Source of the DNA: a virus
Length of the DNA stretch: 36,464 nucleotides
Direction: 5' to 3' (one strand)
IMG/VR virus record: IMGVR_UViG_3300035040_000064
The position numbers and the translations under genes are program-made. Below the pieces are notes generated by a model. It was not told the origin of the DNA, made no database searches, and was given only the letters and a program-made list of their open reading frames with translations. This document shows, piece after piece, positions 1-36,464 of this stretch (its first letter is position 1; every line of letters starts with the position of its first letter).

Positions 1-127
1 GCTTTATTGACCAAGCTCAAACGCCAGGAAGATCACGCTTGGCTCAAAGAAGTTTCGTCCGTACCGGTGCAGCAGTCCCTGCAACACCTTCAGCGGGCTT
101 TTAATAACTTCTTCGCTAAACGAGCTG
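1..127. repeat. Terminal overlap copy 1 (identical to 36338-36464); signature of a circular contig
   Basis: I compared the two stretches base by base and all 127 nt are identical. The overlap lies inside one continuous reading frame (tnpB). Confidence 0.95.
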
Positions 128-972
128 GTTACCCATCGTTTAAGACAAAGCATGGGAGGCAGTCCATCACCTACGTTGCCAGTGGCTTTTCGTGGGATGG
201 AATAGCGCTGACCCTCGCCAAGATGAAAGAGCCATTGGCGATTCGCTGGTCACGTCCCATCCCCGAGGTGGCTAAAATCAACACCTGTACCGTCTCCAAA
301 GACACCGCAGGACGCTACTTCGTATCCCTGCTGTGCGACGATACCGTTACCCCCTTGCCGGAAGTCCCCGGTCAGGTTGGGATTGACCTGGGGCTGACCC
401 ACTTCGCCATTCTGTCCACGGGCGAGAAGATCGCCGCCCCAAACACCTTCCGCCGCAACGAAAAGAAGCTTGCGATGTTGCAGCGCCGCCTGAGCAAAAA
501 GCAAAAAGGATCAAAGAACCGAGCCAAGGCCAAGCAGAAAGTGGCCCGGCTCCATGCGAAAATCGCCGATACCCGGCAGGATTTTCTGCATAAGGTCTCC
601 ACCCGGCTCATTCGCGAGAACCAAGTGATCGCCGTTGAGACCTTGGCCGTGACCAATATGGTCAAAAACCGCCACCTGTCCAAGTCGATATCGGATGCAG
701 GATGGAGTGAATTTATCCGGCAACTCGATTACAAAGCCCGGTGGTACGGACGGACCCTGATCGGGATCGACCGGTGGTATCCGTCAAGTAAACGTTGTGC
801 GGACTGCGGCTACATCATGGGCAAAATGCCCCTGTCGTGCCGTCACTGGACGTGCCCTGAGTGCGGAACCGTCCATGACCGCGACGTCAACGCCGCCCGC
901 AACATACTGGCCGCAGGACATGCGGTTGCAGCCCTTGGAGAAGCGGTAATCCCGGAGCAGGCGCATGCCTGA
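1..972 (+). CDS. tnpB: TnpB, C-terminal part (combined protein about 379 aa)
   Basis: Motifs present: RuvC-I GIDLGL, RuvC-II VIAVETL, zinc finger CADCG...CPECG, RuvC-III HDRDVNAARNI. Stop TGA at 970-972. Confidence 0.9.
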   Translation, partial: ALLTKLKRQEDHAWLKEVSSVPVQQSLQHLQRAFNNFFAKRAGYPSFKTKHGRQSITYVASGFSWDGIALTLAKMKEPLAIRWSRPIPEVAKINTCTVSKDTAGRYFVSLLCDDTVTPLPEVPGQVGIDLGLTHFAILSTGEKIAAPNTFRRNEKKLAMLQRRLSKKQKGSKNRAKAKQKVARLHAKIADTRQDFLHKVSTRLIRENQVIAVETLAVTNMVKNRHLSKSISDAGWSEFIRQLDYKARWYGRTLIGIDRWYPSSKRCADCGYIMGKMPLSCRHWTCPECGTVHDRDVNAARNILAAGHAVAALGEAVIPEQAHA

Positions 973-1045
973 GTCGGCTCGCTTCGATGAATTGGGAATC
1001 CCCGTCCTTCAGGGCGGGGAGGATGTCAACTGGAAGATGAAATGA
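850..1045 (+). ncRNA. Predicted omega RNA (reRNA) scaffold overlapping the tnpB 3' end and right end, with the guide starting at about 1030; extent approximate
   Basis: This is inferred from position. In characterised TnpB systems the guide RNA comes from the 3' end of tnpB plus the right end and reads into flanking DNA. I did not compute a covariance or structure model. Confidence 0.35.
1000..1019 (+). repeat. Right-end subterminal imperfect hairpin CCCCGTCC-TTCA-GGGCGGGG
   Basis: Same architecture as the left-end hairpin. The top of the stem differs by a compensated change (CG/CG in the left end, CC/GG in the right end). Confidence 0.75.
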
Positions 1046-1073
1046 TACATTTACTTGAGAAGGAGTGGAACTG

Positions 1074-1247
1074 ATGATGACCATGGAGCTAATAATATTT
1101 GCTGGAGCGTTGGCCGTTATATGCATATTTGCAGCACTCAAGATTGCGTCAGATATTGTGGAAATCATTGTTGAGCGCAAAAGGCAAAAGCGCCTTGAGA
1201 GAGCGTATGACGATGCTATTGAAGCCATGAGGGCGAAGGATATATAA
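1074..1247 (+). CDS. Small single-pass membrane protein (hypothetical)
   Basis: ORF 1065-1247. AAGGAG at 1060-1065 precedes the ATG at 1074. Hydrophobic segment ELIIFAGALAVICIFAALKIA followed by a charged tail. Locally low GC. Confidence 0.55.
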   Translation: MMTMELIIFAGALAVICIFAALKIASDIVEIIVERKRQKRLERAYDDAIEAMRAKDI

Positions 1248-1249
1248 TC

Positions 1250-1525
1250 ATGAACCACACCGCCAAGCAACTCTTAAACGAAGCCACCGAAGCTGAACTC
1301 AACGCCACCCTCGAAATCCTCCACGAACTGCGCCGCGCTCAACTGAAATATCCGGCAATGGCAGGCCCCCGCGAGGGGTGGGAAACACTCAACTGCGAAG
1401 TATGGGAGATGCACAGAGAGATATACACAGAGCGTCAAAACGCCGCCGCACTGCGCAAAGAGACTGCACAGGTGGGCGCTATGGCGCTGCGGTATCTGCT
1501 GGACGTGTGTGACAGGAGGGAATAA
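1250..1525 (+). CDS. Hypothetical protein (91 aa)
   Basis: The ORF is tightly packed against its neighbours, with an ATGA-type overlap at 1525. The acidic helical pattern ...EVWEMHRE...KETAQVGAMALRYL loosely resembles MazG-like proteins. Confidence 0.5.
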   Translation: MNHTAKQLLNEATEAELNATLEILHELRRAQLKYPAMAGPREGWETLNCEVWEMHREIYTERQNAAALRKETAQVGAMALRYLLDVCDRRE

Positions 1526-1749
1526 TGCGAAGGGAAATATATCTTGAAATAATCGCACTCATGGAGAAAGAGTGGAAATATTTTGAGTTTGAGCAATGCC
1601 CATGGTGCGGAAACGATGTCGAGGTGTTGACCGACGCACCAGCCGGATATGTACAGGACGGGGATGCTGTGCGGTGCGTCGATGCCAACTGCGGTTTTAG
1701 GTCTAGTGTGTCTGTTGATGACGAAGAAATCTGGATTCAAGACGCATAA
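1525..1749 (+). CDS. Small zinc-ribbon protein (hypothetical)
   Basis: CPWCG ... CVDANCG cysteine pairs. The start overlaps the upstream stop. Confidence 0.5.
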   Translation: MRREIYLEIIALMEKEWKYFEFEQCPWCGNDVEVLTDAPAGYVQDGDAVRCVDANCGFRSSVSVDDEEIWIQDA

Positions 1750-1786
1750 CGATTGAGTTAAAGCGCCGACTGAAAGGAGGTCGATT

Positions 1787-2005
1787 TTGAACGACTTGTT
1801 AGCCCTGTTTGGCGACCGGGAAGAAACGATTTATAGCGCAGAACTGTACCTCTTGCGAAAGCTGGCAGAGACGAGCAGCGACATGGTGAAAGCCCGTGAT
1901 TGGGAAGAATTTCGTGTTGCGTGTGGCGGACAGGAAAAGCTGGACAAAGCCCACGCGGATGCGCTGCGCGAATACGAACAATGGCTCTCTGATGGAGAGG
2001 GCTAA
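1787..2005 (+). CDS. Hypothetical protein (72 aa), TTG start
   Basis: AAAGGAGG at 1774-1780 lies 6 nt upstream of the TTG at 1787. Confidence 0.5.
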   Translation: MNDLLALFGDREETIYSAELYLLRKLAETSSDMVKARDWEEFRVACGGQEKLDKAHADALREYEQWLSDGEG

Positions 2006-2018
2006 CAAGGAGTTAAAA

Positions 2019-2303
2019 ATGCCTGAAAAACAGCAAAACACCAAATGCACAGCCCCGGTAGAAACCTACGCCCGCGTGGTCGGCTTCTTCCGCCCCGTCC
2101 AGCACTGGAACAAAGGCAAACAACAGGAGTTCAGCGACCGCAAGACAATAAAAACCCGCACAAAAAGGAGAAAAAATGCCACCAGAAATCACCAAAGAAA
2201 AAAAACAACGCCTCGCGCAAGAGCTAAAGCGCCTGCGCATTCTGCCCCTACGGGGCGAACTAATCATCAGCGTCGGCTCAGATGGCAGCATCGGCAACAT
2301 TAA
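2019..2303 (+). CDS. Mini-protein resembling the glycyl-radical C-terminus of anaerobic ribonucleotide reductase NrdD
   Basis: AAGGAG at 2007-2012 precedes the ATG at 2019. The N-terminal 42 aa are MPEKQQNTKCTAPVETYARVVGFFRPVQHWNKGKQQEFSDRK, which matches the NrdD C-terminal pattern R-V-x-G-Y/F...RP..WN.GK..E...R. The remaining 50 aa are low-complexity and basic, and overlap the next gene. Confidence 0.5.
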   Translation: MPEKQQNTKCTAPVETYARVVGFFRPVQHWNKGKQQEFSDRKTIKTRTKRRKNATRNHQRKKTTPRARAKAPAHSAPTGRTNHQRRLRWQHRQH

Positions 2304-2322
2304 AGTAATCACCAACCACTAA
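2176..2322 (+). CDS. Hypothetical small protein (48 aa; below the ORF-track cutoff)
   Basis: AAAGGAG at 2163-2169 precedes the ATG at 2176. The translation is MPPEITKEKKQRLAQELKRLRILPLRGELIISVGSDGSIGNIKVITNH. Its third-position GC bias looks like the rest of the genome, unlike the overlapping frame. Confidence 0.5.
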   Translation: MPPEITKEKKQRLAQELKRLRILPLRGELIISVGSDGSIGNIKVITNH

Positions 2323-2366
2323 CCCACAACCAAATAAAGCCCGAACCACGGCAACCCTGAAAAGGA

Positions 2367-2411
2367 GCCCGTAAACCACCAGCACTCACGCTAGCTTTAC
2401 GGGCTTTTTTT
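2367..2411 (+). terminator. Rho-independent terminator
   Basis: Stem GCCCGTAAA (2367-2375) / TTTACGGGC (2396-2404) followed by seven T residues (2405-2411). Confidence 0.7.
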
Positions 2412-3269
2412 ATGGAGCGCCGTATGAACAAAAAACAAGACCTCCTCACCCGCGTAAAAGACCTGCAGCAACACTGCACGCAGGAAGAAAAAGCCGAACT
2501 CACCGCGTTCTACAACGCCCGCCAGCGCACCCTGCAATCGTACAACGAAGACAGCACCGCCGCGCGCAAGAAAGACTACGACGCCGCGCGCGAAGGTCTG
2601 ACCGAACTCGTCGAGCGCCTGGAACAGCAGTACCTCGCGCCCGAGCCCCAGACATCCAAACCCGCGTACCACCCCACAGATATCCTGTTCCGCAACTCCA
2701 CCGAGATGTACCACCACCTGAAGGATAAAGGCTGGGATCTATCCTCGCGCCAGACCCTCACCAACCACGCCAAAAAAGGATCCTTGCAGCTCGCGCCCGA
2801 TCGCTCCATCACCACCGCCGCGTTCGAAGCGTGGAAGAACAACCCCGAAGGCGGCCAGCGCTACTACGAAAGCTACATCCGCCACCAGCGCGATGCTTTA
2901 GGCACCATCGAAGAAAACGCCCTCAAAAAATCCAAAGACGAAGCCGAGATCATCGCCCTCAATCGGCGCAAAAAAGAGCGCGAAGAACAAAAAGAGATGG
3001 GCCTGCTCATCACCCGCGAGCAAGCCGACGCCGAAGTCTGCGCCTGGACAGGCATCACCCGCGACACCATCGCCGCCCACATCATCAAGCAGGTACCCAC
3101 AATCATCCACACCACCGGCGGCCAGATCCAGACCCAGCCAGAACTCGAAGCCCTGATTGAGCAAACCATAGACGCCGCCTGCAACGCCATCGCCACCAGC
3201 GACGAGGTTGATGTGGTTATCGAAGGCGAACCGGAAGAAGACACCGAAGAAATGGACGAAACCGCGTAG
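2412..3269 (+). CDS. Hypothetical protein; positional candidate for the small terminase subunit
   Basis: The ORF sits directly upstream of the large terminase. It has a coiled-coil N-terminus and an acidic C-terminus. An alternative start is at 2424 (MNKKQ). The stop TAG lies inside a REP-like GTAG head. I recognised no diagnostic motif. Confidence 0.55.
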   Translation: MERRMNKKQDLLTRVKDLQQHCTQEEKAELTAFYNARQRTLQSYNEDSTAARKKDYDAAREGLTELVERLEQQYLAPEPQTSKPAYHPTDILFRNSTEMYHHLKDKGWDLSSRQTLTNHAKKGSLQLAPDRSITTAAFEAWKNNPEGGQRYYESYIRHQRDALGTIEENALKKSKDEAEIIALNRRKKEREEQKEMGLLITREQADAEVCAWTGITRDTIAAHIIKQVPTIIHTTGGQIQTQPELEALIEQTIDAACNAIATSDEVDVVIEGEPEEDTEEMDETA

Positions 3270-3289
3270 GGGCGCTGCTTGCCGCGCCC
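3266..3289 (+). repeat. REP-like unit, type B: GTAGGGGCGCTGCTTGCCGCGCCC
   Basis: GTAGGG head followed by a GGGCGC/GCGCCC hairpin. It forms an inverted pair with 3319-3342 (one mismatch). Confidence 0.7.
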
Positions 3290-3318
3290 ATTGCACGGGA
3301 TAGCAGCCAAACAACAAA

Positions 3319-3342
3319 GGGCGCAGCAAGCAGCGCCCCTAC
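3319..3342 (-). repeat. REP-like unit, type B (reverse orientation): GTAGGGGCGCTGCTTGCTGCGCCC
   Basis: The + strand reads GGGCGCAGCAAGCAGCGCCCCTAC, identical to 5623-5646. Confidence 0.7.
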
Positions 3343-3369
3343 GATAACCGGAGAAACCGGAGGAAAACC

Positions 3370-5343
3370 ATGCAACTAATCCCCCAAACCGTCAAACCCC
3401 TGCCAGCGCACGCCCACATGGCCGGCAGGCGCTACACCGGCAAACCCTCCCGCGCCCTGCGCCGCCGGATGCGCACGCCCGAAAAACTCAGCATCAGCCA
3501 GTGGGCCGCCAAATACCGCCGCGTCACCGCCATCGACGCTTACCCCGGCCCGTGGGAAGCCGAGAAGGTGCCGCACCTCGCCAAAATCATGGACACCATC
3601 AGCCTCCCCTACGTGCGCGAGGTCTATATATGCATGCCCGAGCGCGCCGGCAAAACGCAGGTGTTGCTCAATACCATGGGCTGGACCCTCGACCAGGGCT
3701 CCAAATCCGGCAACGTCTTCTGGCTCATGCCCATCGAATCCGAAGCAAAAAAAGCCATGAGCGAGAGGATCATCCCCGTCCTCAAAGCAAAAGACGGCTT
3801 TGGCCGCCCCGGCCGCCTCGCGCGCTACCTCAGCAAATACGACGACGACACCAAGCGCGGCACCATCCGCTTTAACACCGGCACCCGCCTGTTTCCCGCG
3901 TGGTCCAACTCGCCCGCATCAATGGCGTCATACTTTGGCAAGCTCAACATCGGCGACGAGATCGACAAGTTCGAAAAATCCACCCGCGAAGGCACCGACG
4001 CCCTCACTCTGATCCGCAAACGCGGGCGCGACAACCGCACCAACACCAAAAACGTCTTTGCCAGCACCCCTGGTGCCGCGCGCCGCATCTACACCATGAG
4101 CATGCACGAAGCCCAGCAGGTGTGGCAGTACTACATGCGCTGCCCCGAGTGCGACGCGCCCATCTGCCCGGACGAAACCCACCTCGATCTCCCCGCCGGG
4201 GCTACCGCCTCCGAGATTGAGATCACCGGCTGCAGCATCGCCTGCCCCGCGTGTGGCACCCTGCTCGAAGAACACCAGCGCCACAGCGCGTATCAATCCG
4301 GCACCTGGCTCTGCACCCAGGGGCAGGATATCAAGCGCCCCGGCACCGTCGGCTTCCACATGAGCGCGTACTGCCTCCCGCGTGTGCCCCTCGCCGAAAT
4401 CGCCGCCGCCTGGCTGCGCGCCGAGCACGGCAGCACCGTGCACAAAACCGCCTACTACAATGGGTATAGAGTGCAGGACTACGACCCCCCACGCGCCACC
4501 AAAGACTGGCGCGACGTCCTCCTCCTGTGCGACGAGCGCCCGCGCGACCTCGTACCCAACAACACCGCCGCCCTGATTCTGCAAGTCGATACCCAGCAAG
4601 ACGGCTTTTATTACGAGGTTGCCGCCGTAGGCTACCAAACCACCGGCGGTACCGTATCAAGCTACCTGGTGCGCAAGGGCTATCTGCTCACCTTCGGCGA
4701 CCTGCTCGACCTCGCCGCGCGCACCTGGCACAGCGCCGATGGCAAGCAGTACAAAATCTGCTCCGCCCTAATCGACTCCGGCGGCGGGCGCAAAGCAGGC
4801 ATGCCCGCCAAGCACTCCCGGACGAAAGAGGTATACGAGTTCTGCCGCCAGCACCCGATCTTCCGCCCGGTAAAAGGCAAGCCCCGGCGCGATACCGCCA
4901 TCAAATACAGCAAAATCGATGTCTGGCCCGGCACCAGCAAGCCCATCCCCGGAGGCCTCCAGCTCATCATTCTGGATGTGCATTTTTTCAAGGATGCCCT
5001 CGCGAGCGCGATGCACGTAAACCCCGGCGATCCGGGCAGCTTCAACCTGTACAGCGGCTACACCGAACACCAGCTCAACAACCCCAACAAAGCGATAGAG
5101 CCCGAAAACGAGCTAACCGACTACGCCAAACACCTCTGCGCTGAATACCGCAACGACCTCGGCAACTGGGAGCACGACAAAACCGCCGGACGCAACGACT
5201 ACCACGACTGCGCCACCTACCGCATGGCCCACATCGAAATCCTGCGCCAGGGTGGGGCGCTGATCCGCCAAAATGCAACACCACCCAAACCAAAAAAACA
5301 GCCCGCAACTACCAACAAACAACAACAAGGGAGATTCTGGTAA
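3370..5343 (+). CDS. Terminase large subunit, lambda GpA-like
   Basis: 657 aa. The N-terminus ...LSISQWAAKYRRV...YPGPWEAEKVPHLAKIMD... and the Walker A-like PERAGKTQ are typical of the GpA family. Cys pairs CPECD...CPACG. GGAGG RBS. It is followed by W-like and lambda-type portal genes. Confidence 0.85.
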   Translation: MQLIPQTVKPLPAHAHMAGRRYTGKPSRALRRRMRTPEKLSISQWAAKYRRVTAIDAYPGPWEAEKVPHLAKIMDTISLPYVREVYICMPERAGKTQVLLNTMGWTLDQGSKSGNVFWLMPIESEAKKAMSERIIPVLKAKDGFGRPGRLARYLSKYDDDTKRGTIRFNTGTRLFPAWSNSPASMASYFGKLNIGDEIDKFEKSTREGTDALTLIRKRGRDNRTNTKNVFASTPGAARRIYTMSMHEAQQVWQYYMRCPECDAPICPDETHLDLPAGATASEIEITGCSIACPACGTLLEEHQRHSAYQSGTWLCTQGQDIKRPGTVGFHMSAYCLPRVPLAEIAAAWLRAEHGSTVHKTAYYNGYRVQDYDPPRATKDWRDVLLLCDERPRDLVPNNTAALILQVDTQQDGFYYEVAAVGYQTTGGTVSSYLVRKGYLLTFGDLLDLAARTWHSADGKQYKICSALIDSGGGRKAGMPAKHSRTKEVYEFCRQHPIFRPVKGKPRRDTAIKYSKIDVWPGTSKPIPGGLQLIILDVHFFKDALASAMHVNPGDPGSFNLYSGYTEHQLNNPNKAIEPENELTDYAKHLCAEYRNDLGNWEHDKTAGRNDYHDCATYRMAHIEILRQGGALIRQNATPPKPKKQPATTNKQQQGRFW

Positions 5344-5534
5344 TGGCCAACAATTCAGACCTGCTGCGCGGCATGAAAGCCATCTGCAACTACATCAACG
5401 TATCCGAAGCCACCGCCCTCAAATACTACCGCGAGCTCGACATGCCCATGCGCAAAAGCGGCAAGGACAACAAAGGCGAATGGCTTTCCAGCCGTAAAAA
5501 GCTGGATAAGTGGACCGAGGATTTGTTTGCGTGA
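5343..5534 (+). CDS. Small helix-turn-helix protein (excisionase/AlpA/MerR-like fold)
   Basis: 63 aa. ...AICNYINVSEATALKYYRELDMP...WLSSRKKLDKW is a typical short HTH_17-like pattern. TAATG overlap with the terminase stop. Confidence 0.55.
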   Translation: MANNSDLLRGMKAICNYINVSEATALKYYRELDMPMRKSGKDNKGEWLSSRKKLDKWTEDLFA

Positions 5535-5537
5535 ATC

Positions 5538-5558
5538 GGTGGGCGGTGCCCACCCTGC
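5538..5558 (-). repeat. REP-like unit, type A variant (GCAGGGTGGGCACCGCCCACC on the - strand)
   Basis: The + strand reads GGTGGGCGGTGCCCACCCTGC. The hairpin is GGTGGGC/GCCCACC. Confidence 0.65.
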
Positions 5559-5568
5559 AACCCCACCC

Positions 5569-5594
5569 GTAGGGGCAGGCCCCTGTGCCTGCCC
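5569..5594 (+). repeat. REP-like unit, type C: GTAGGGGCAGGCCCCTGTGCCTGCCC
   Basis: GTAGGG head and an 8-bp stem GGGCAGGC/GCCTGCCC. Confidence 0.65.
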
Positions 5595-5622
5595 TTGCCC
5601 CGGCACCGCAACACACCCACCA

Positions 5623-5646
5623 GGGCGCAGCAAGCAGCGCCCCTAC
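5623..5646 (-). repeat. REP-like unit, type B (identical to 3319-3342)
   Basis: A 25-nt exact direct repeat is shared by 3318-3342 and 5622-5646. Confidence 0.7.
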
Positions 5647-5760
5647 ACCTGCAACCTTGCCCCTTGAACCTTCCCGCCGAACCCATGTCAACCGCAAATA
5701 ACCCATAAACTTCCGCAAACTTCCCATAAATACCACCTAAACTCCCTATAAACTTCAGAA

Positions 5761-5815
5761 GTGCCAAAAAGCGCCATTACAATAACAGTCAAAATTGTAA
5801 TAACGTTTTTTGCAC
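5761..5815. other. Long imperfect AT-rich hairpin upstream of the head genes
   Basis: GTGCCAAAAAGCGCCATTACAAT - loop AACAGTCAAA - ATTGTAATAACGTTTTTTGCAC. The inner 8-bp stem is perfect and the outer arms pair with a few mismatches. Confidence 0.5.
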
Positions 5816-5834
5816 TTCCACGGGGAGCATCTCA

Positions 5835-6077
5835 TTGGCAGCCACATTCACTAGCTGGACAGCGCTCCACACGGCTATGCTCAATGCGGCGGCGGACTTT
5901 TTCGCCAACCGGATCAGCGTAGCATCCTACACCGTAGATACCGGCGGCAGCCGTCGCCAGCTTGAATACCGCACCGTTGCTGAGTTCCAGGCAGGGCTCG
6001 AATTTGTCGCCCACATGGCCGCAACCGAATCCGGCAGTGTATCGCTGCGCACCGTTGCTGTGCCGAGGCGCGTATGA
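5835..6077 (+). CDS. Head-tail joining protein, lambda gpW-like
   Basis: 80 aa with a TTG start after GGGGAG. It sits between terminase and portal as in lambda. The pattern ...GGSRRQLEYRTVAEFQAGLEFV...R resembles gpW. Confidence 0.6.
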   Translation: MAATFTSWTALHTAMLNAAADFFANRISVASYTVDTGGSRRQLEYRTVAEFQAGLEFVAHMAATESGSVSLRTVAVPRRV

Positions 6078-24072: not shown

Positions 24073-25131
24073 GTGAGCATCATCATCAGCATTAAGGACA
24101 GTCTGCGCCAGAGCGTGGAAGCCGCCACCGGCGGTCAGGTAACCGTGATGTACGACGACAAGGGCTATCCCAGCCACATGTGCCGAGTCCCCCTGTTTAC
24201 TCTCGATACGATCGACCCGGCGTGGCCTGCGACCCCGCACCCCGCCTTCGTGGTCAACGGCACGACGAAATCGGAAATATGGGTTGCCCAGTACCCCGCC
24301 AACGTGCACGACGGCATGGCGCTCTCGCTGCCCGGCCAAAATCAGACAACCTCAGTCAACTTCGACACGGCAGACGCCCGTTGCAGCGCCAAGGGGGCAG
24401 GCTGGCACATGATGACCAATGCCGAATGGGCGGCGATCGCGCTTCTGACCCACAAGCAGTTCGGTGCGGACTCGATCCACGGCAACACCGATTACGGCCG
24501 CGACTATCTGGCGACCTTCGAGACAGCACCCCGGCAGGACGCCGGCACGCCGGGCGAAGCCAGCGGCACCGCCCGCACCCTGCCCGGCGCGGGTCCCGCC
24601 TCATGGCGGCACAACGGCGAGCCGAGCGGCATCGCCGATCTGGTCGGCAACGTCTGGGAGTGGGTGCGCGGCCTGCGCATCGTCGACGGAGAGATTCAGA
24701 TCCTTGCCGATAACAATGCAGCTGACCAGAGCGCTGACCAGAGCGCGACTAGCAGCGAATGGAGAGCAATTTTACAGGATGGGTCTCTTGTTGCGCCCGG
24801 CACAGCAAGCACCCTCAAGTGGGACAGCAACAGCGGCGTGCAGCTCGCAACGGCAGTGACGACCGTCGGCACGCCCTCTACGCAGTATAAGGACGTCGTC
24901 GCCGCATCCGGCGTGACGATCCCCGCGATCCTTCAGCAACTCGGTCTGCACCCGCACGCCACCGACATGCAGCGCGGGCGGCTCTATGTCAACAACGAAG
25001 GGGAGCGTCTGCCGTTCCGTGGTGGCTACTGGGACAATGGCGCTTACGCCGGGGCCTTTGCCCTGTGCCTGTACAACCAGCGTTCGTATGCGTACACGTA
25101 CATCGGGTTCCGCCCCGCTTTCGTTCTGTAA
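24073..25131 (+). CDS. Tail fibre tip / receptor-binding candidate with an FGE-sulfatase (C-type-lectin-fold) domain
   Basis: GTG start after AAGGAGA. Motifs: ...GWHMMTNAEWAAIA..., ...DLVGNVWEWV..., ...RGGYWDNGAYAG...IGFRPAF. Confidence 0.65.
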   Translation: MSIIISIKDSLRQSVEAATGGQVTVMYDDKGYPSHMCRVPLFTLDTIDPAWPATPHPAFVVNGTTKSEIWVAQYPANVHDGMALSLPGQNQTTSVNFDTADARCSAKGAGWHMMTNAEWAAIALLTHKQFGADSIHGNTDYGRDYLATFETAPRQDAGTPGEASGTARTLPGAGPASWRHNGEPSGIADLVGNVWEWVRGLRIVDGEIQILADNNAADQSADQSATSSEWRAILQDGSLVAPGTASTLKWDSNSGVQLATAVTTVGTPSTQYKDVVAASGVTIPAILQQLGLHPHATDMQRGRLYVNNEGERLPFRGGYWDNGAYAGAFALCLYNQRSYAYTYIGFRPAFVL

Positions 25132-25368
25132 TCTGTTGTCTGTGATCTGGTGGAGCGGGCGATAGCCCGCTCTGCCTTTTGGATCGACCTCCAAAGCCCC
25201 CGCCAAATCAATCAAGGTGGAAGTTTCCGGGTCTGAACGCCCGTTTTCGTACTTCCAGAGCAAGCCTTTCTTTATGCCTACCAATTCGGCCAGCGCCTTC
25301 TGGGTAAGCCCGCTCTTCTCTCTGGCTTCTTTTATCCTGAGCCCAAGCTCTTCTCGTAGGTTTTCCAT
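24772..25368 (-). CDS. XRE-family HTH regulator; only the first 65 aa or so look like a real domain
   Basis: MENLREELGLRIKEAREKSGLTQKALAELVGIKKGLLWKYENGRSDPETSTLIDLAGALEV is a clear HTH_3 domain. The frame has no stop until 24772, which lies antisense inside the fibre-tip gene. Confidence 0.6.
   Translation of the reverse strand: MENLREELGLRIKEAREKSGLTQKALAELVGIKKGLLWKYENGRSDPETSTLIDLAGALEVDPKGRAGYRPLHQITDNRLQNESGAEPDVRVRIRTLVVQAQGKGPGVSAIVPVATTERQTLPFVVDIEPPALHVGGVRVQTELLKDRGDRHAGCGDDVLILRRGRADGRHCRCELHAAVAVPLEGACCAGRNKRPIL
25153..25180 (+). terminator. Rho-independent terminator after the fibre genes
   Basis: GAGCGGGC-GATA-GCCCGCTC followed by TGCCTTTT. Confidence 0.6.
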
Positions 25369-36169: not shown

Positions 36170-36464
36170 ATGGATATTAAGCGAGCTTACAGATATCGGT
36201 TTTACCCTACTCCGGCGCAGGAAGAAATTTTAGCGCAGACGTTCGGCTGTGCTCGCTATGTCTATAACTACATGCTCCGCCTTCGGACGGATGCCTGGTT
36301 TGAGCGGGGAGAGCGCTTGGGATACCACGAGACCTCCGCTTTATTGACCAAGCTCAAACGCCAGGAAGATCACGCTTGGCTCAAAGAAGTTTCGTCCGTA
36401 CCGGTGCAGCAGTCCCTGCAACACCTTCAGCGGGCTTTTAATAACTTCTTCGCTAAACGAGCTG
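36170..36464 (+). CDS. tnpB: TnpB (IS200/IS605 OrfB-type RNA-guided nuclease), N-terminal part; continues at base 1 across the circular junction
   Basis: ATG at 36170. The translation MDIKRAYRYRFYPTPAQEEILAQTFGCARYVYNYMLRLRTDAWFERGERLGYHETSALLTKLK... is a typical TnpB N-terminus. The frame runs off the window end and is in phase with the ORF at 7-972. Confidence 0.9.
   Translation, partial: MDIKRAYRYRFYPTPAQEEILAQTFGCARYVYNYMLRLRTDAWFERGERLGYHETSALLTKLKRQEDHAWLKEVSSVPVQQSLQHLQRAFNNFFAKRA
36338..36464. repeat. Terminal overlap copy 2 (identical to 1-127)
   Basis: Exact 127-nt identity with the window start. Confidence 0.95.

What the first reader, a model, noticed from the sequence alone, without database searches (positions are those of the whole stretch)
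2019..2150. A free-standing mini-ORF mimics the glycyl-radical C-terminus of anaerobic ribonucleotide reductase (NrdD)
After a good RBS (AAGGAG, 6-nt spacing) the ORF opens with MPEKQQNTKCTAPVETYARVVGFFRPVQHWNKGKQQEFSDRK. The block Y-x-R-V-x-G-(Y/F)-x-RP-x-x-x-WN-x-GK-x-x-E-x-x-x-R is the pattern I associate with the extreme C-terminus of class III RNR. That segment carries the radical glycine, here G22 (codon 2082-2084). Nothing upstream resembles the rest of NrdD, and the zinc-binding Cys pairs that normally precede the loop are absent. The precedent is GrcA/YfiD, a small spare-part protein that replaces the oxygen-damaged glycyl-radical domain of pyruvate formate-lyase. An NrdD-type equivalent encoded by a phage could rescue dNTP supply in an anaerobic host. 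It could also act as a decoy for the NrdG activase. Phe replaces the usual Tyr after the Gly.
Basis: partly seen in the sequence, partly recalled or inferred. Interest (0 to 1): 0.7.

Follow-up and report, generated by a model that had tools for sequence, protein, structure and literature searches.

The report
Phage-borne stand-alone glycyl-radical piece of anaerobic RNR
A complete 36-kb phage genome carries a tiny gene that encodes only the radical-bearing tail of the anaerobic ribonucleotide reductase; the same mini-protein is a separately encoded subunit of that enzyme in several anaerobic bacterial lineages and occurs without the enzyme on many phage contigs, an arrangement I could not find described.

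Summary
The ORF starts at ATG 2019 behind AAGGAG, and residues 8-42 match the last 36 positions of Pfam NRDD (37 bits, cut-off 26.2, E 2e-9). Gly22 sits in RVVGFF.

The ORF does not end at 2150. It runs to 2303 (94 aa), but the tail after residue 43 is an unconserved read-through created at a recombination joint.

This is not a one-off. A full HMMER search found 2176 protein clusters, and the 150 best are all 48-192 aa.

In the cellular genomes sampled, every short copy with readable upstream sequence lies in an operon of the form nrdD(large, no glycine loop) - mini - nrdG. That is a naturally split class III RNR. Its two architectures co-vary between the end of the large chain and the start of the mini.

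On viral contigs, 54 loci carry the mini alone among replication genes. The window is a complete phage genome without nrdD or nrdG. Its nearest named relative is binned with Desulfuromonas, an order whose sampled NrdDs are split.

Best reading: the phage supplies extra copies of the replaceable glycyl-radical subunit to the host enzyme. No biochemistry exists. I found no prior description, and a 2026 review states that spare parts are known only for formate lyases.

The parts
2007..2012 (+). Shine-Dalgarno AAGGAG, 6 nt upstream of the start codon
   Evidence: Read directly. The identical RBS and start are conserved in L003. 38 of 50 distinct phage orphan copies (the window and L003 included) have a strict SD motif, and 46 of 50 start with ATG.
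2019..2303 (+). Mini-NrdD ORF as it stands in this genome (94 aa; stop codon 2301-2303)
   Evidence: ORF list. An identical sequence lies at the start of an independent Logan contig (L166), where a 63-residue gene running to this stop was called.
2040..2144 (+). Region homologous to the NrdD C-terminal glycyl-radical segment (residues 8-42)
   Evidence: Pfam NRDD at 37 bits, profile positions 525-560 of 562. NCBIfam NrdD C-termini. The nucleotide similarity to L003, L004 and L001 lies almost entirely within 2003-2146.
2046..2048 (+). Cys10 codon, 12 residues before the Gly, aligned with the fourth Zn ligand of full-length NrdD. It marks this copy as 'type A'.
   Evidence: Cys is present at -12 in 89 of the 150 top hits. 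It aligns with CPxC in full-length NrdDs. It co-varies with short-tailed large chains in split operons.
2082..2084 (+). Gly22 codon, the predicted radical site within RVVGFF
   Evidence: Invariant in 150 of 150 top hits and in all 70 phage orphan cores. It sits in the turn of the AF2 beta-hairpin, just before the second strand.
2148..2300 (+). Unconserved basic read-through tail (residues 44-94), probably without function
   Evidence: L003 diverges completely after window position 2146 and ends 5 codons later. L004 has about 1.8 kb between its mini and the 48-aa gene. The other frame is the conserved one.
2176..2322 (+). Neighbouring 48-aa gene of unknown function, in another frame and overlapped by the tail of the mini-ORF. 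It is not part of the system but delimits it.
   Evidence: An ORF of the same length, with a conserved start and end, is present in the related phage L004. It was called as a gene in L166 and L167. It has no Pfam hit.
2360..2411 (+). Intrinsic-terminator-like hairpin followed by a U-run, closing the transcription unit that contains the mini-ORF
   Evidence: RNA fold of -25.7 kcal/mol, z = -5.3 against shuffles. The simple scan missed it because the loop is too long for its rules.

Best explanation
The ORF encodes a stand-alone glycyl-radical module of the anaerobic (class III) ribonucleotide reductase. The working part is a core of about 35 residues: Cys10, then a beta-hairpin carrying Gly22, then a short helix.

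The same mini-protein is a normal, separately encoded subunit in several anaerobic lineages. There the gene order is nrdD-large, mini, nrdG, and the large chain stops just before the glycine loop.

Proposed mechanism, all steps inferred:
1. The phage expresses the peptide with its early/replication genes.
2. The host activase NrdG abstracts a hydrogen from Gly22.
3. The peptide plugs into the barrel of the host's NrdD large chain, with Cys10 completing the zinc site that tethers the two chains.
4. The radical passes to the active-site cysteine, and NTP reduction feeds phage DNA synthesis.

The glycyl radical is the oxygen-labile, self-destructing part of the enzyme. A 150-nt gene that resupplies it is therefore a cheap way for a 36-kb phage to raise or maintain dNTP supply. 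It resembles a replaceable fuse, analogous to GrcA for pyruvate formate-lyase.
For: Homology:
- Pfam NRDD scores above its cut-off on the extreme C-terminus.
- In split operons the large chain covers NRDD profile positions 1-526/538 and the mini covers 533-561, so the two are complementary.
- In the operon checked (L086) the downstream gene is NrdG2, above its curated cut-off.

The cellular split is consistent:
- 24 of 80 genome hits were first scored as short, and L104 also proved to be split.
- Every one with readable upstream sequence lies directly after a roughly 670-1080 aa NrdD that ends at ...CPxHGYxxGxHxxCP... and lacks the RVxG motif; two sit too close to a contig start to tell.
- 19 have an NrdG-like gene directly downstream.
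- One example is an isolate, Thermodesulfatator autotrophicus.

Co-variation between the chains:
- Minis with Cys at -12 pair with large chains that end 7-25 aa after the CP motif.
- Minis without that Cys pair with large chains carrying CP[YF][PED]H plus a 17-34 aa tail.
- The one partial exception is L160, whose Cys is offset by one residue.

Phage orphans:
- 54 IMG/VR loci have at least 2.5 kb of upstream sequence and no NrdD-large ORF within about 6 kb; none has a strong NrdG match, and two (L018, L074) have only a weak radical-SAM hit.
- 46 of 50 distinct copies start with ATG and 38 of 50 have an SD motif. The median length is 54 aa.
- Their neighbours are replication and recombination genes.
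- Two further sampled representatives, P0024 and P0025, are also phage orphans.

Selection:
- Gly, Arg(-3), RP, WN, GK, E and R are about 100% conserved in orphans, as in cellular minis.
- Between the window and L001, 12 codons differ synonymously. Only 3 of the 11 replacements fall inside the core.

This lineage:
- The window is a complete, circularly assembled genome without nrdD or nrdG.
- Relatives with 73%-identical terminases each keep a 53-aa mini, but at different genome positions.
- The nearest named terminase comes from a Desulfuromonas thiophila MAG.
- The tetranucleotide profile is closest to deltaproteobacterial loci.
- The relatives' minis are 71-77% identical to Desulfuromonadales split-type minis.

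Structure and literature:
- AF2 gives a hairpin with Gly22 in its turn, followed by a helix, at pLDDT 77.6.
- The NrdD glycyl-radical domain is known to be a mobile, rigid-body unit (PMC11226230).
Against: - There is no biochemical or expression evidence for any member of the family.
- The host is inferred only from one MAG label at 73% terminase identity and from a k-mer profile. TnpB relatives point weakly elsewhere, to Candidimonas at about 75% identity.
- The window's own core is only slightly closer to split-type minis (71%) than to full-length C-termini (66%).
- The IMG/VR and genome scans used patterns taken from the query, which biases the composition of the sets.
- This copy carries a 51-aa basic read-through tail that might impair function.
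- The relative L004 has lost Cys(-12) and has a poor start, so some copies may be decaying.
- Foldseek found no structural match for the 46-residue model.
- PHROGs has no family for it.
Confidence: 0.55

Rival explanations
1. GrcA-type repair part for a monolithic host NrdD. After oxygen cleaves a full-length NrdD at its glycyl radical, the phage peptide displaces the damaged C-terminus and restores activity.
For: - The GrcA/YfiD and phage T4 Y06I precedent for pyruvate formate-lyase is established knowledge, reviewed in PMC13450708.
- Full-length NrdDs with nearly identical C-termini exist, for example L115 and L097.
- 10 of 70 orphan cores are closer to full-length C-termini than to split minis, and 21 are equal.
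- Many orphans come from contigs whose hosts are unknown.
Against: - Orphans share the signature of split-type minis (VV before the Gly, F at +2, K at +10). The full-length enzymes retrieved favour ITGYY...WNDGK, although the search patterns impose part of this.
- Keeping the Zn-ligand Cys(-12) makes sense for a large chain that lacks it, not for an intact zinc site.
- The likely host order has split enzymes.
- A damaged monolithic enzyme still holds the N-terminal half of its own loop, which would have to be displaced.
Confidence: 0.2
2. Decoy or inhibitor. The peptide soaks up NrdG activity, or occupies the NrdD large chain unproductively. This would shut down host dNTP synthesis or act in superinfection exclusion.
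For: A free peptide with the RVxG[FY] motif should be an easy substrate for the activase. This rests on established knowledge that short peptides carrying the motif are substrates of the PFL activase. Small phage proteins often act as inhibitors.
Against: - A replicating phage needs dNTPs, and orphans sit in replication modules.
- The radical Gly is invariant in all 70 orphan cores, whereas a poison subunit would tolerate or favour its loss.
- The WNxGKxxEFxxR segment, well beyond the activase motif, is as conserved as in functional cellular subunits.
Confidence: 0.08
3. Functionless remnant, or attP-type duplicate of the 3' end of host nrdD. Either it is a scrap captured by illegitimate recombination, or it is a gene-end copy that repairs nrdD after integration into it.
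For: - Similarity to the relatives is confined to the cassette at 2003-2146, with mosaic breakpoints on both sides.
- The natural stop codon has been lost in this genome.
- L004 has a degraded N-terminus.
Against: - The gene has its own SD and ATG plus a short leader that is not NrdD-like.
- The core is under purifying selection.
- There are thousands of clusters of similar small ORFs.
- Related phages retain the mini at three different positions.
- No integrase was found among the window ORFs scanned, and only 1 of 144 orphan neighbours is an integrase.
Confidence: 0.07

Closest known systems
C-terminal glycyl-radical domain of class III ribonucleotide reductase NrdD (Pfam PF13597; NCBIfam NF006126 / TIGR02487; structures of T. 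maritima 4COI/4U3E and P. copri 8P23)
   Same: The homology is significant. The mini matches the last ~36 profile positions, including E-x-Y-S/A-R-V-x-G-[YF]-x-R-P...W-N-x-G-K-x-x-E-F-x-x-R. The predicted fold is a hairpin plus a helix with the Gly in the hairpin turn. Cys10 aligns with the last Zn ligand.
   Different: The ATP-cone, the 10-stranded barrel, the catalytic cysteines and three of the four zinc ligands are all missing. The mini is a separate gene with its own translation signals.
Separately encoded small chain of split class III RNR operons (nrdD-large, mini, nrdG), seen here in Thermodesulfobacteriota, Desulfuromonadales, Spirochaetota/Leptospirales, Aquificales, TA06 and others. 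I found no published description.
   Same: It has the same size class, the same core, and the same type-A feature of Cys at -12. The cores of related phages are 71-77% identical to Desulfuromonadales cellular minis.
   Different: The phage copy is an orphan. No nrdD-large and no nrdG exist anywhere in the complete genome.
GrcA/YfiD of E. coli and Y06I of phage T4: autonomous glycyl-radical cofactors for pyruvate formate-lyase
   Same: Both are small free-standing proteins that reproduce the glycyl-radical C-terminus of a large glycyl-radical enzyme. A phage-encoded example is known. The logic is the same: replace the oxygen-destroyed part.
   Different: The parent enzyme differs (PFL, Pfam Gly_radical PF01228). 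There is no sequence match, since only NRDD is hit. GrcA is about 127 aa with its own folded domain, whereas this core is about 35 aa. A 2026 review states that spare parts are known only for formate lyases (PMC13450708).
Split class II RNR NrdJa/NrdJb (Pseudomonas aeruginosa; Thermus phage phiYS40), and fragmented phage RNR genes (introns, inteins, homing endonucleases; nrdD of Aeromonas phage phiAS4)
   Same: In both, an RNR catalytic polypeptide is encoded as two consecutive ORFs that must associate (PMC4520616, PMC9669993, PMC3653736).
   Different: The RNR class and the split point differ. In those cases both pieces stay together in one genome. Here one piece travels alone in phages.

Membership tests
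NrdD (class III RNR catalytic subunit, PF13597 / TIGR02487) | Significant profile match | tested here: met
   PF13597 at 37 bits against a cut-off of 26.2, E 2e-9, but only over profile positions 525-560 of 562. NCBIfam scores (about 30 bits) are far below the whole-protein cut-offs of 326-585.
NrdD (class III RNR catalytic subunit, PF13597 / TIGR02487) | Catalytic alpha/beta barrel with active-site cysteines (and usually an ATP-cone) | tested here: not met
   The conserved part of the protein is about 43 aa. An HMM of the NrdD barrel built from 57 sequences finds nothing in any frame of the window.
NrdD (class III RNR catalytic subunit, PF13597 / TIGR02487) | Glycyl-radical motif RVxG[YF] near the C-terminus | tested here: met
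   R19-V-V-G22-F-F is present. Gly and Arg are invariant in the 150 top homologues.
NrdD (class III RNR catalytic subunit, PF13597 / TIGR02487) | Four-ligand zinc site preceding the glycine loop | tested here: not met
   Only Cys10, aligned with the fourth ligand, is present.
GrcA/YfiD autonomous glycyl-radical cofactor (Pfam Gly_radical PF01228) | Sequence homology to the PFL-type glycyl-radical domain | tested here: not met
   A Pfam scan at E<=10 returns NRDD (plus a weak chance match to GAPT for the 94-aa form), not Gly_radical.
GrcA/YfiD autonomous glycyl-radical cofactor (Pfam Gly_radical PF01228) | Small free-standing protein carrying the radical glycine | tested here: met
   It has its own SD and ATG, no parent enzyme gene exists in the genome, and the Gly is conserved.
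GrcA/YfiD autonomous glycyl-radical cofactor (Pfam Gly_radical PF01228) | Radical installed by the cognate activase, and activity restored to the damaged enzyme | not testable with these tools
   This needs EPR and an enzyme assay.
Small chain of split class III RNR (defined here from cellular operons) | 40-100 aa ORF with its own start, consisting of the core [C]-x4-E-V/T-Y-S/A-R-V-x-G-[YF]-x-RP-x3-WN-x-GK-x2-EF-x2-R | tested here: met
   The window core matches at every near-invariant position. The one departure is Ala18 for Ser, which is also seen in 4 of 150 homologues.
Small chain of split class III RNR (defined here from cellular operons) | Located between a C-terminally truncated nrdD and nrdG | tested here: not met
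   No nrdD-large or nrdG is present in the window, which is a complete circular assembly. In the sampled cellular genomes every short copy with readable upstream sequence lies next to nrdD-large, and most have an nrdG-like gene downstream.
Small chain of split class III RNR (defined here from cellular operons) | N-terminal type that matches the partner large chain (Cys at -12 pairs with a short-tailed large chain) | tested here: inconclusive
   The window copy is type A (Cys10). The partner would be the host enzyme, and the host is only inferred to be Desulfuromonadales, whose sampled enzymes are type A.

The most novel reading that the evidence does not exclude
Class III ribonucleotide reductase exists in nature as a two-chain enzyme whose glycyl-radical 'fuse' is a separate, exchangeable ~50-residue protein. 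Phages of anaerobes have widely captured this fuse alone as a minimal auxiliary metabolic gene: tens of orphan loci in IMG/VR and many of the 2176 clusters found here. They would use it to keep host dNTP synthesis running. That would be the first spare-part or autonomous radical cofactor outside the formate lyases, and the smallest known phage metabolic gene of its type.
Probability: 0.5. Interest if true: 0.85.

Novelty: new variant of a known kind. Interest (0 to 1): 0.8.

Why it matters
Radical enzymology. Glycyl-radical enzymes are thought to carry their radical on the catalytic polypeptide itself. The only known exchangeable radical module is GrcA for pyruvate formate-lyase, and a 2026 review says this explicitly. 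A separately encoded radical subunit for the anaerobic RNR would give a natural two-piece system. With it, activation by NrdG, docking of the radical loop, radical transfer and oxygen damage could be studied with a synthesizable ~45-residue peptide.

Phage biology. It would show that small phages of anaerobes boost nucleotide supply by carrying only the labile 150-nt part of a 2-kb enzyme.

Annotation. These genes are currently left as 'hypothetical', or discarded as fragments of NrdD. For example, RNR phylogeny studies filter out sequences under 400 residues (PMC9531940). Split nrdD genes may also be mistaken for pseudogenes.

Tried and rejected
- phmmer of the 46-aa peptide against PDB sequences found nothing. 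A 30-sequence profile gave only weak hits to the T. maritima NrdD (E 0.02) and P. copri NrdD (E 1) C-termini.
- Foldseek of the AF2 model against PDB gave no meaningful match, because the model is too short.
- PHROGs has no family for the window peptide. Some homologues hit the C-terminus of phrog_487 (NrdD) weakly.
- Megablast of window 1000-6000 against INPHARED phages found no match. tblastn of the peptide found only two records, and the one examined (H1) is a full-length NrdD beside NrdG and an integrase.
- The first word-indexed protein search returned a single homologue. The exhaustive HMMER search was needed.
- Host identification through the TnpB gene failed. Relatives are about 75% identical, with one Candidimonas label, and the near-identical element sits in unrelated phage contigs.
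- I considered that the radical-SAM gene upstream of the terminase in relative L179 might be a phage NrdG. It is a PA0069/Rv2578c-type radical SAM protein, not an activase.
- I considered programmed frameshifting between the mini-ORF and the overlapping 48-aa gene, and rejected it. The overlap arises from a recombination or deletion joint that is absent in L003 and L004.
- Nine literature searches for an NrdD spare part or a split class III RNR found nothing relevant.

Full report
1. THE OBSERVATION

The sequence is as described. AAGGAG lies at 2007-2012, followed by a 6-nt spacer and ATG at 2019. The translation is MPEKQQNTKCTAPVETYARVVGFFRPVQHWNKGKQQEFSDRK, with Gly22 encoded at 2082-2084.

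Pfam NRDD (PF13597) matches residues 8-42 to profile positions 525-560 of 562, with E 2.2e-9 and 37 bits, above the gathering cut-off of 26.2. The NCBIfam NrdD equivalogs match only through their last ~40 positions.

Three corrections are needed:
- The ORF does not end at 2150. It runs to the stop at 2301-2303, giving 94 aa.
- Cys10 is not an irrelevant residue. It aligns with the last zinc ligand of full-length NrdDs.
- Phe after the Gly is common in this family.

2. THE GENOME

The window is a complete, circularly assembled phage genome. Its last ~120 nt repeat its first bases inside a tnpB gene, and an independent assembly of 36,367 bp carries the same sequence.

It encodes a GpA-type terminase, a portal, a capsid fusion protein, a sheath and tube, baseplate proteins and a CI-like repressor. 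It also encodes a D5/Toprim primase, SSB, SNF2 helicases and a methylase.

HMMs for the NrdD barrel and for NrdG find nothing in it.

The mini-ORF lies at the end of a run of small genes, after the replication module and before the packaging genes. A strong terminator hairpin follows at 2360-2411.

3. THE TAIL IS AN ACCIDENT

L003 shares 95% nucleotide identity with the window only over 2003-2146, which covers the RBS plus 43 codons. It then diverges completely and ends five codons later, giving a 48-aa protein.

L004 is a close relative (94% identity over 2167-5264). It has about 1.8 kb between its mini and the 48-aa gene.

The 48-aa gene at 2176-2322 is conserved as an ORF in L004. Residues 44-94 of the window protein are therefore a read-through created at a recombination or deletion joint. 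The conserved unit is the cassette at 2003-2146.

4. A LARGE FAMILY OF MINI-PROTEINS

phmmer of residues 1-46 against 1.84 billion representative proteins found 2176 clusters at E<=1e-3. The 150 best are all 48-192 aa, and 146 of them start with Met.

They share a 35-residue core: [K][C]xx[PK]x-E-V-Y-S-R-V-V-G-[YF]-F-R-P-V-x-x-W-N-K-G-K-x-x-E-F-x-[DE]-R-K. About a dozen positions are nearly invariant, and the N- and C-terminal extensions vary. A few members also carry two CxxC pairs upstream.

AF2 with a 55-sequence alignment gives a beta-hairpin (residues 14-17 and 23-26) with Gly22 in its turn, followed by a helix at 32-39. Mean pLDDT is 77.6. This is the expected shape of a glycyl-radical finger, but Foldseek cannot place so short a model.

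5. IN CELLS THE MINI IS A SUBUNIT OF A SPLIT ENZYME

A scan of one genome per GTDB species returned 80 loci, of which 56 were scored as full-length NrdDs and 24 as short ORFs. One of the 56, L104, later proved to be split as well.

Every short ORF with readable upstream sequence sits directly downstream of an NrdD of about 670-1080 aa. Two (L089, L141) lie too close to a contig start to tell. That NrdD ends right after ...TPTFS[IV]CPxHGYxxGxHxxCP... and has no RVxG motif. The mini follows in any of the three frames with its own start. In 19 of them an NrdG-like gene follows the mini.

Pfam shows that the two chains are complementary. The large chains cover NRDD positions 1-526/538 and the L086 mini covers 533-561. 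NCBIfam files the L086 large chain under NF006126 at 1043 bits, covering positions 5-652 of 684. It files the gene downstream of the L086 mini under NrdG2, above the curated cut-off.

The lineages include Thermodesulfobacteriota (among them the isolate Thermodesulfatator autotrophicus), Desulfuromonadales, Spirochaetota/Leptospirales, Aquificales, TA06, Planctomycetia and Muiribacteriota.

Two architectures co-vary, with one partial exception (L160, whose Cys is offset by one residue):
- Type A: the large chain ends 7-25 residues after 'CP', and the mini has Cys at -12. That Cys is the missing fourth zinc ligand.
- Type B: the large chain has CP[YF][PED]H plus a 17-34 residue tail, and the mini has no Cys at -12.

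This co-variation is what physical partners would show. It argues that the split is a working design, not decay.

6. IN PHAGES THE MINI TRAVELS ALONE

Of 80 IMG/VR loci, 7-8 are full-length NrdDs and 4 carry a split operon. In 14 mini copies (13 IMG/VR loci plus the window) there is too little upstream sequence to judge from the locus alone.

The remaining 54 have at least 2.5 kb upstream and no NrdD-large ORF within about 6 kb. None has a strong NrdG match, although two (L018, L074) carry a weak radical-SAM hit.

Of 50 distinct copies (48 of these orphans plus the window and L003), 46 start with ATG and 38 have a strict Shine-Dalgarno motif. The median length is 54 aa, with the Gly about 15 residues from the start.

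Their neighbours are phage replication and recombination genes: DUF669, DUF3799, AAA_24, RusA, DnaB and methylases.

P0001, P0024 and P0025, sampled from the exhaustive search, are also phage orphans. P0004 is a cellular split-operon copy.

The orphan cores keep Gly, Arg(-3), RP, WN, GK, E and R at or near 100%. Their composition resembles split-type minis more than the full-length C-termini retrieved: 39 are closer to split, 21 equal and 10 closer to full-length. The search patterns bias some of these columns.

7. THIS PHAGE LINEAGE AND ITS HOST

The terminase's closest named relative (73% identity) is from a Desulfuromonas thiophila MAG.

The window's tetranucleotide profile is closest to deltaproteobacterial loci among those in hand. 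This is weak evidence.

Two relatives with 73%-identical terminases each carry a 53-aa mini, but elsewhere in the genome: after the SLT lysozyme gene in L179/L181, and in the replication module in L182. Their cores are 71-77% identical to Desulfuromonadales cellular minis.

All Desulfuromonadales NrdDs sampled here are split and type A, and the window's mini is type A.

Retention of the gene at three different positions in one lineage argues for selection. So does the comparison of the window with L001: 12 codons differ synonymously and only 3 replacements fall inside the core.

8. MECHANISM

All steps are inferred. The phage makes the peptide together with its replication genes. Host NrdG abstracts a hydrogen from Gly22. 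The peptide then docks into the host NrdD large chain, with Cys10 completing the zinc site. The radical reaches the active-site cysteine, and NTP reduction supplies phage DNA synthesis.

The glycyl-radical domain of intact NrdD is already known to be a mobile, rigid-body unit that leaves the barrel (PMC11226230). A detachable version is therefore plausible.

Oxygen destroys the enzyme by cleaving at the radical glycine. That makes the mini the consumable part, and carrying it costs a phage only 150 nt.

9. RIVALS

- A GrcA-like repair part for monolithic NrdD remains possible for some hosts. It is not exclusive with the best explanation.
- A decoy for NrdG is disfavoured by the conservation of the whole core.
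- A dead remnant or attP-type duplicate is disfavoured by the translation signals, the purifying selection, the size of the family and the absence of integrases nearby.

10. COMPARISON WITH WHAT IS KNOWN

The window protein is homologous to the NrdD C-terminus but is not an NrdD. It works like GrcA/Y06I but is not a member of that family. Its nearest kin is the small chain of split class III RNRs, from which it differs by being an orphan.

Split class II RNR (NrdJa/b) and fragmented phage RNR genes are known (PMC4520616, PMC3653736).

Nine full-text searches found no description of a split class III RNR or of an NrdD-type autonomous radical protein. A June 2026 review states that formate lyases are the only glycyl-radical enzymes with spare-part proteins (PMC13450708). 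RNR phylogeny work discards sequences under 400 residues (PMC9531940), which may explain why these were missed. Papers in subscription journals were not searchable.

11. VERDICT

I rate it a new variant of a known kind: an autonomous glycyl-radical module, here for class III RNR, with a cellular split-enzyme counterpart. Interest is 0.8. The main uncertainties are the lack of any biochemistry and the inferred host.

Noticed in passing
window 1-972 and 36290-36464 (one gene across the circular junction): A TnpB-only IS200/IS605-type element (379 aa; OrfB_IS605 plus the Cas12f-like TNB domain) sits in the phage genome. A TnpB of at least 90% identity, from the same protein cluster, occurs in unrelated phage contigs of one JGI sample series: a BPP-1-like podovirus with Bbp16/Bbp19 genes and a DnaB/ThyX phage. 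The element therefore appears to be hopping between phages.
   Followed up: partly
window ends (about the last 120 nt equal the first 120 nt): The end of the window repeats its start. The window is thus a circularly assembled, apparently complete ~36.3-kb phage genome. No integrase was found among the ORFs scanned, although a CI-like repressor is present at 24772-25368 (-).
   Followed up: partly
window 3318-3342 and 5622-5646: An exact 25-nt GC-rich palindromic repeat (GGGCGCAGCAAGCAGCGCCCCTAC.) flanks the large terminase gene on both sides. A related inverted copy lies at about 3267-3290. Its function is unknown; it could be a terminator or a REP-like element.
   Followed up: no
L085, L091, L099, L106-L108, L111, L114, L123-L125, L127, L130-L132 and others (genome contigs); L176 4042-6450: Many full-length NrdDs of Clostridia, Erysipelotrichia and Spirochaetes carry an extra domain of about 110-145 residues after the glycyl-radical segment. 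It contains a TCPNC motif and looks glutaredoxin/thioredoxin-like. This would be a fused reductant.
   Followed up: no
L163 4965-7976; L112 6727-9954: The split-type NrdD large chains of Thermodesulfobacterium are about 1000 aa. In L163 this is because a LAGLIDADG-type intein is inserted in the barrel, so that enzyme is both intein-interrupted and split.
   Followed up: no
P0136 (192 aa), P0103 and L038 (169-173 aa), P0001 (111 aa): Some minis are fused to, or read through into, other modules. These are a dCMP deaminase (P0136), a lipoprotein-like or transmembrane extension (P0103, L038), and a phrog_7990-like domain (P0001). The dCMP deaminase link again points to nucleotide metabolism.
   Followed up: partly
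P0002, P0003, P0022: Three top-scoring small proteins contain an internal tandem duplication of part of the core (for example ...RVCGYFRPVSNWNKGRVCGYFRPVSNWNKGK...). This may reflect assembly artefacts or real duplications.
   Followed up: no
L179 4071-4787: A relative of the window phage carries a PA0069/Rv2578c-type radical SAM gene directly upstream of its terminase. It is not an NrdG-type activase, and its role is unknown.
   Followed up: partly
L177 8536-8874: One orphan-mini phage contig also encodes a dGTP diphosphohydrolase N-terminal domain protein (PF18909) and a glycosyltransferase just downstream. This hints at further nucleotide-pool manipulation in the same module.
   Followed up: no
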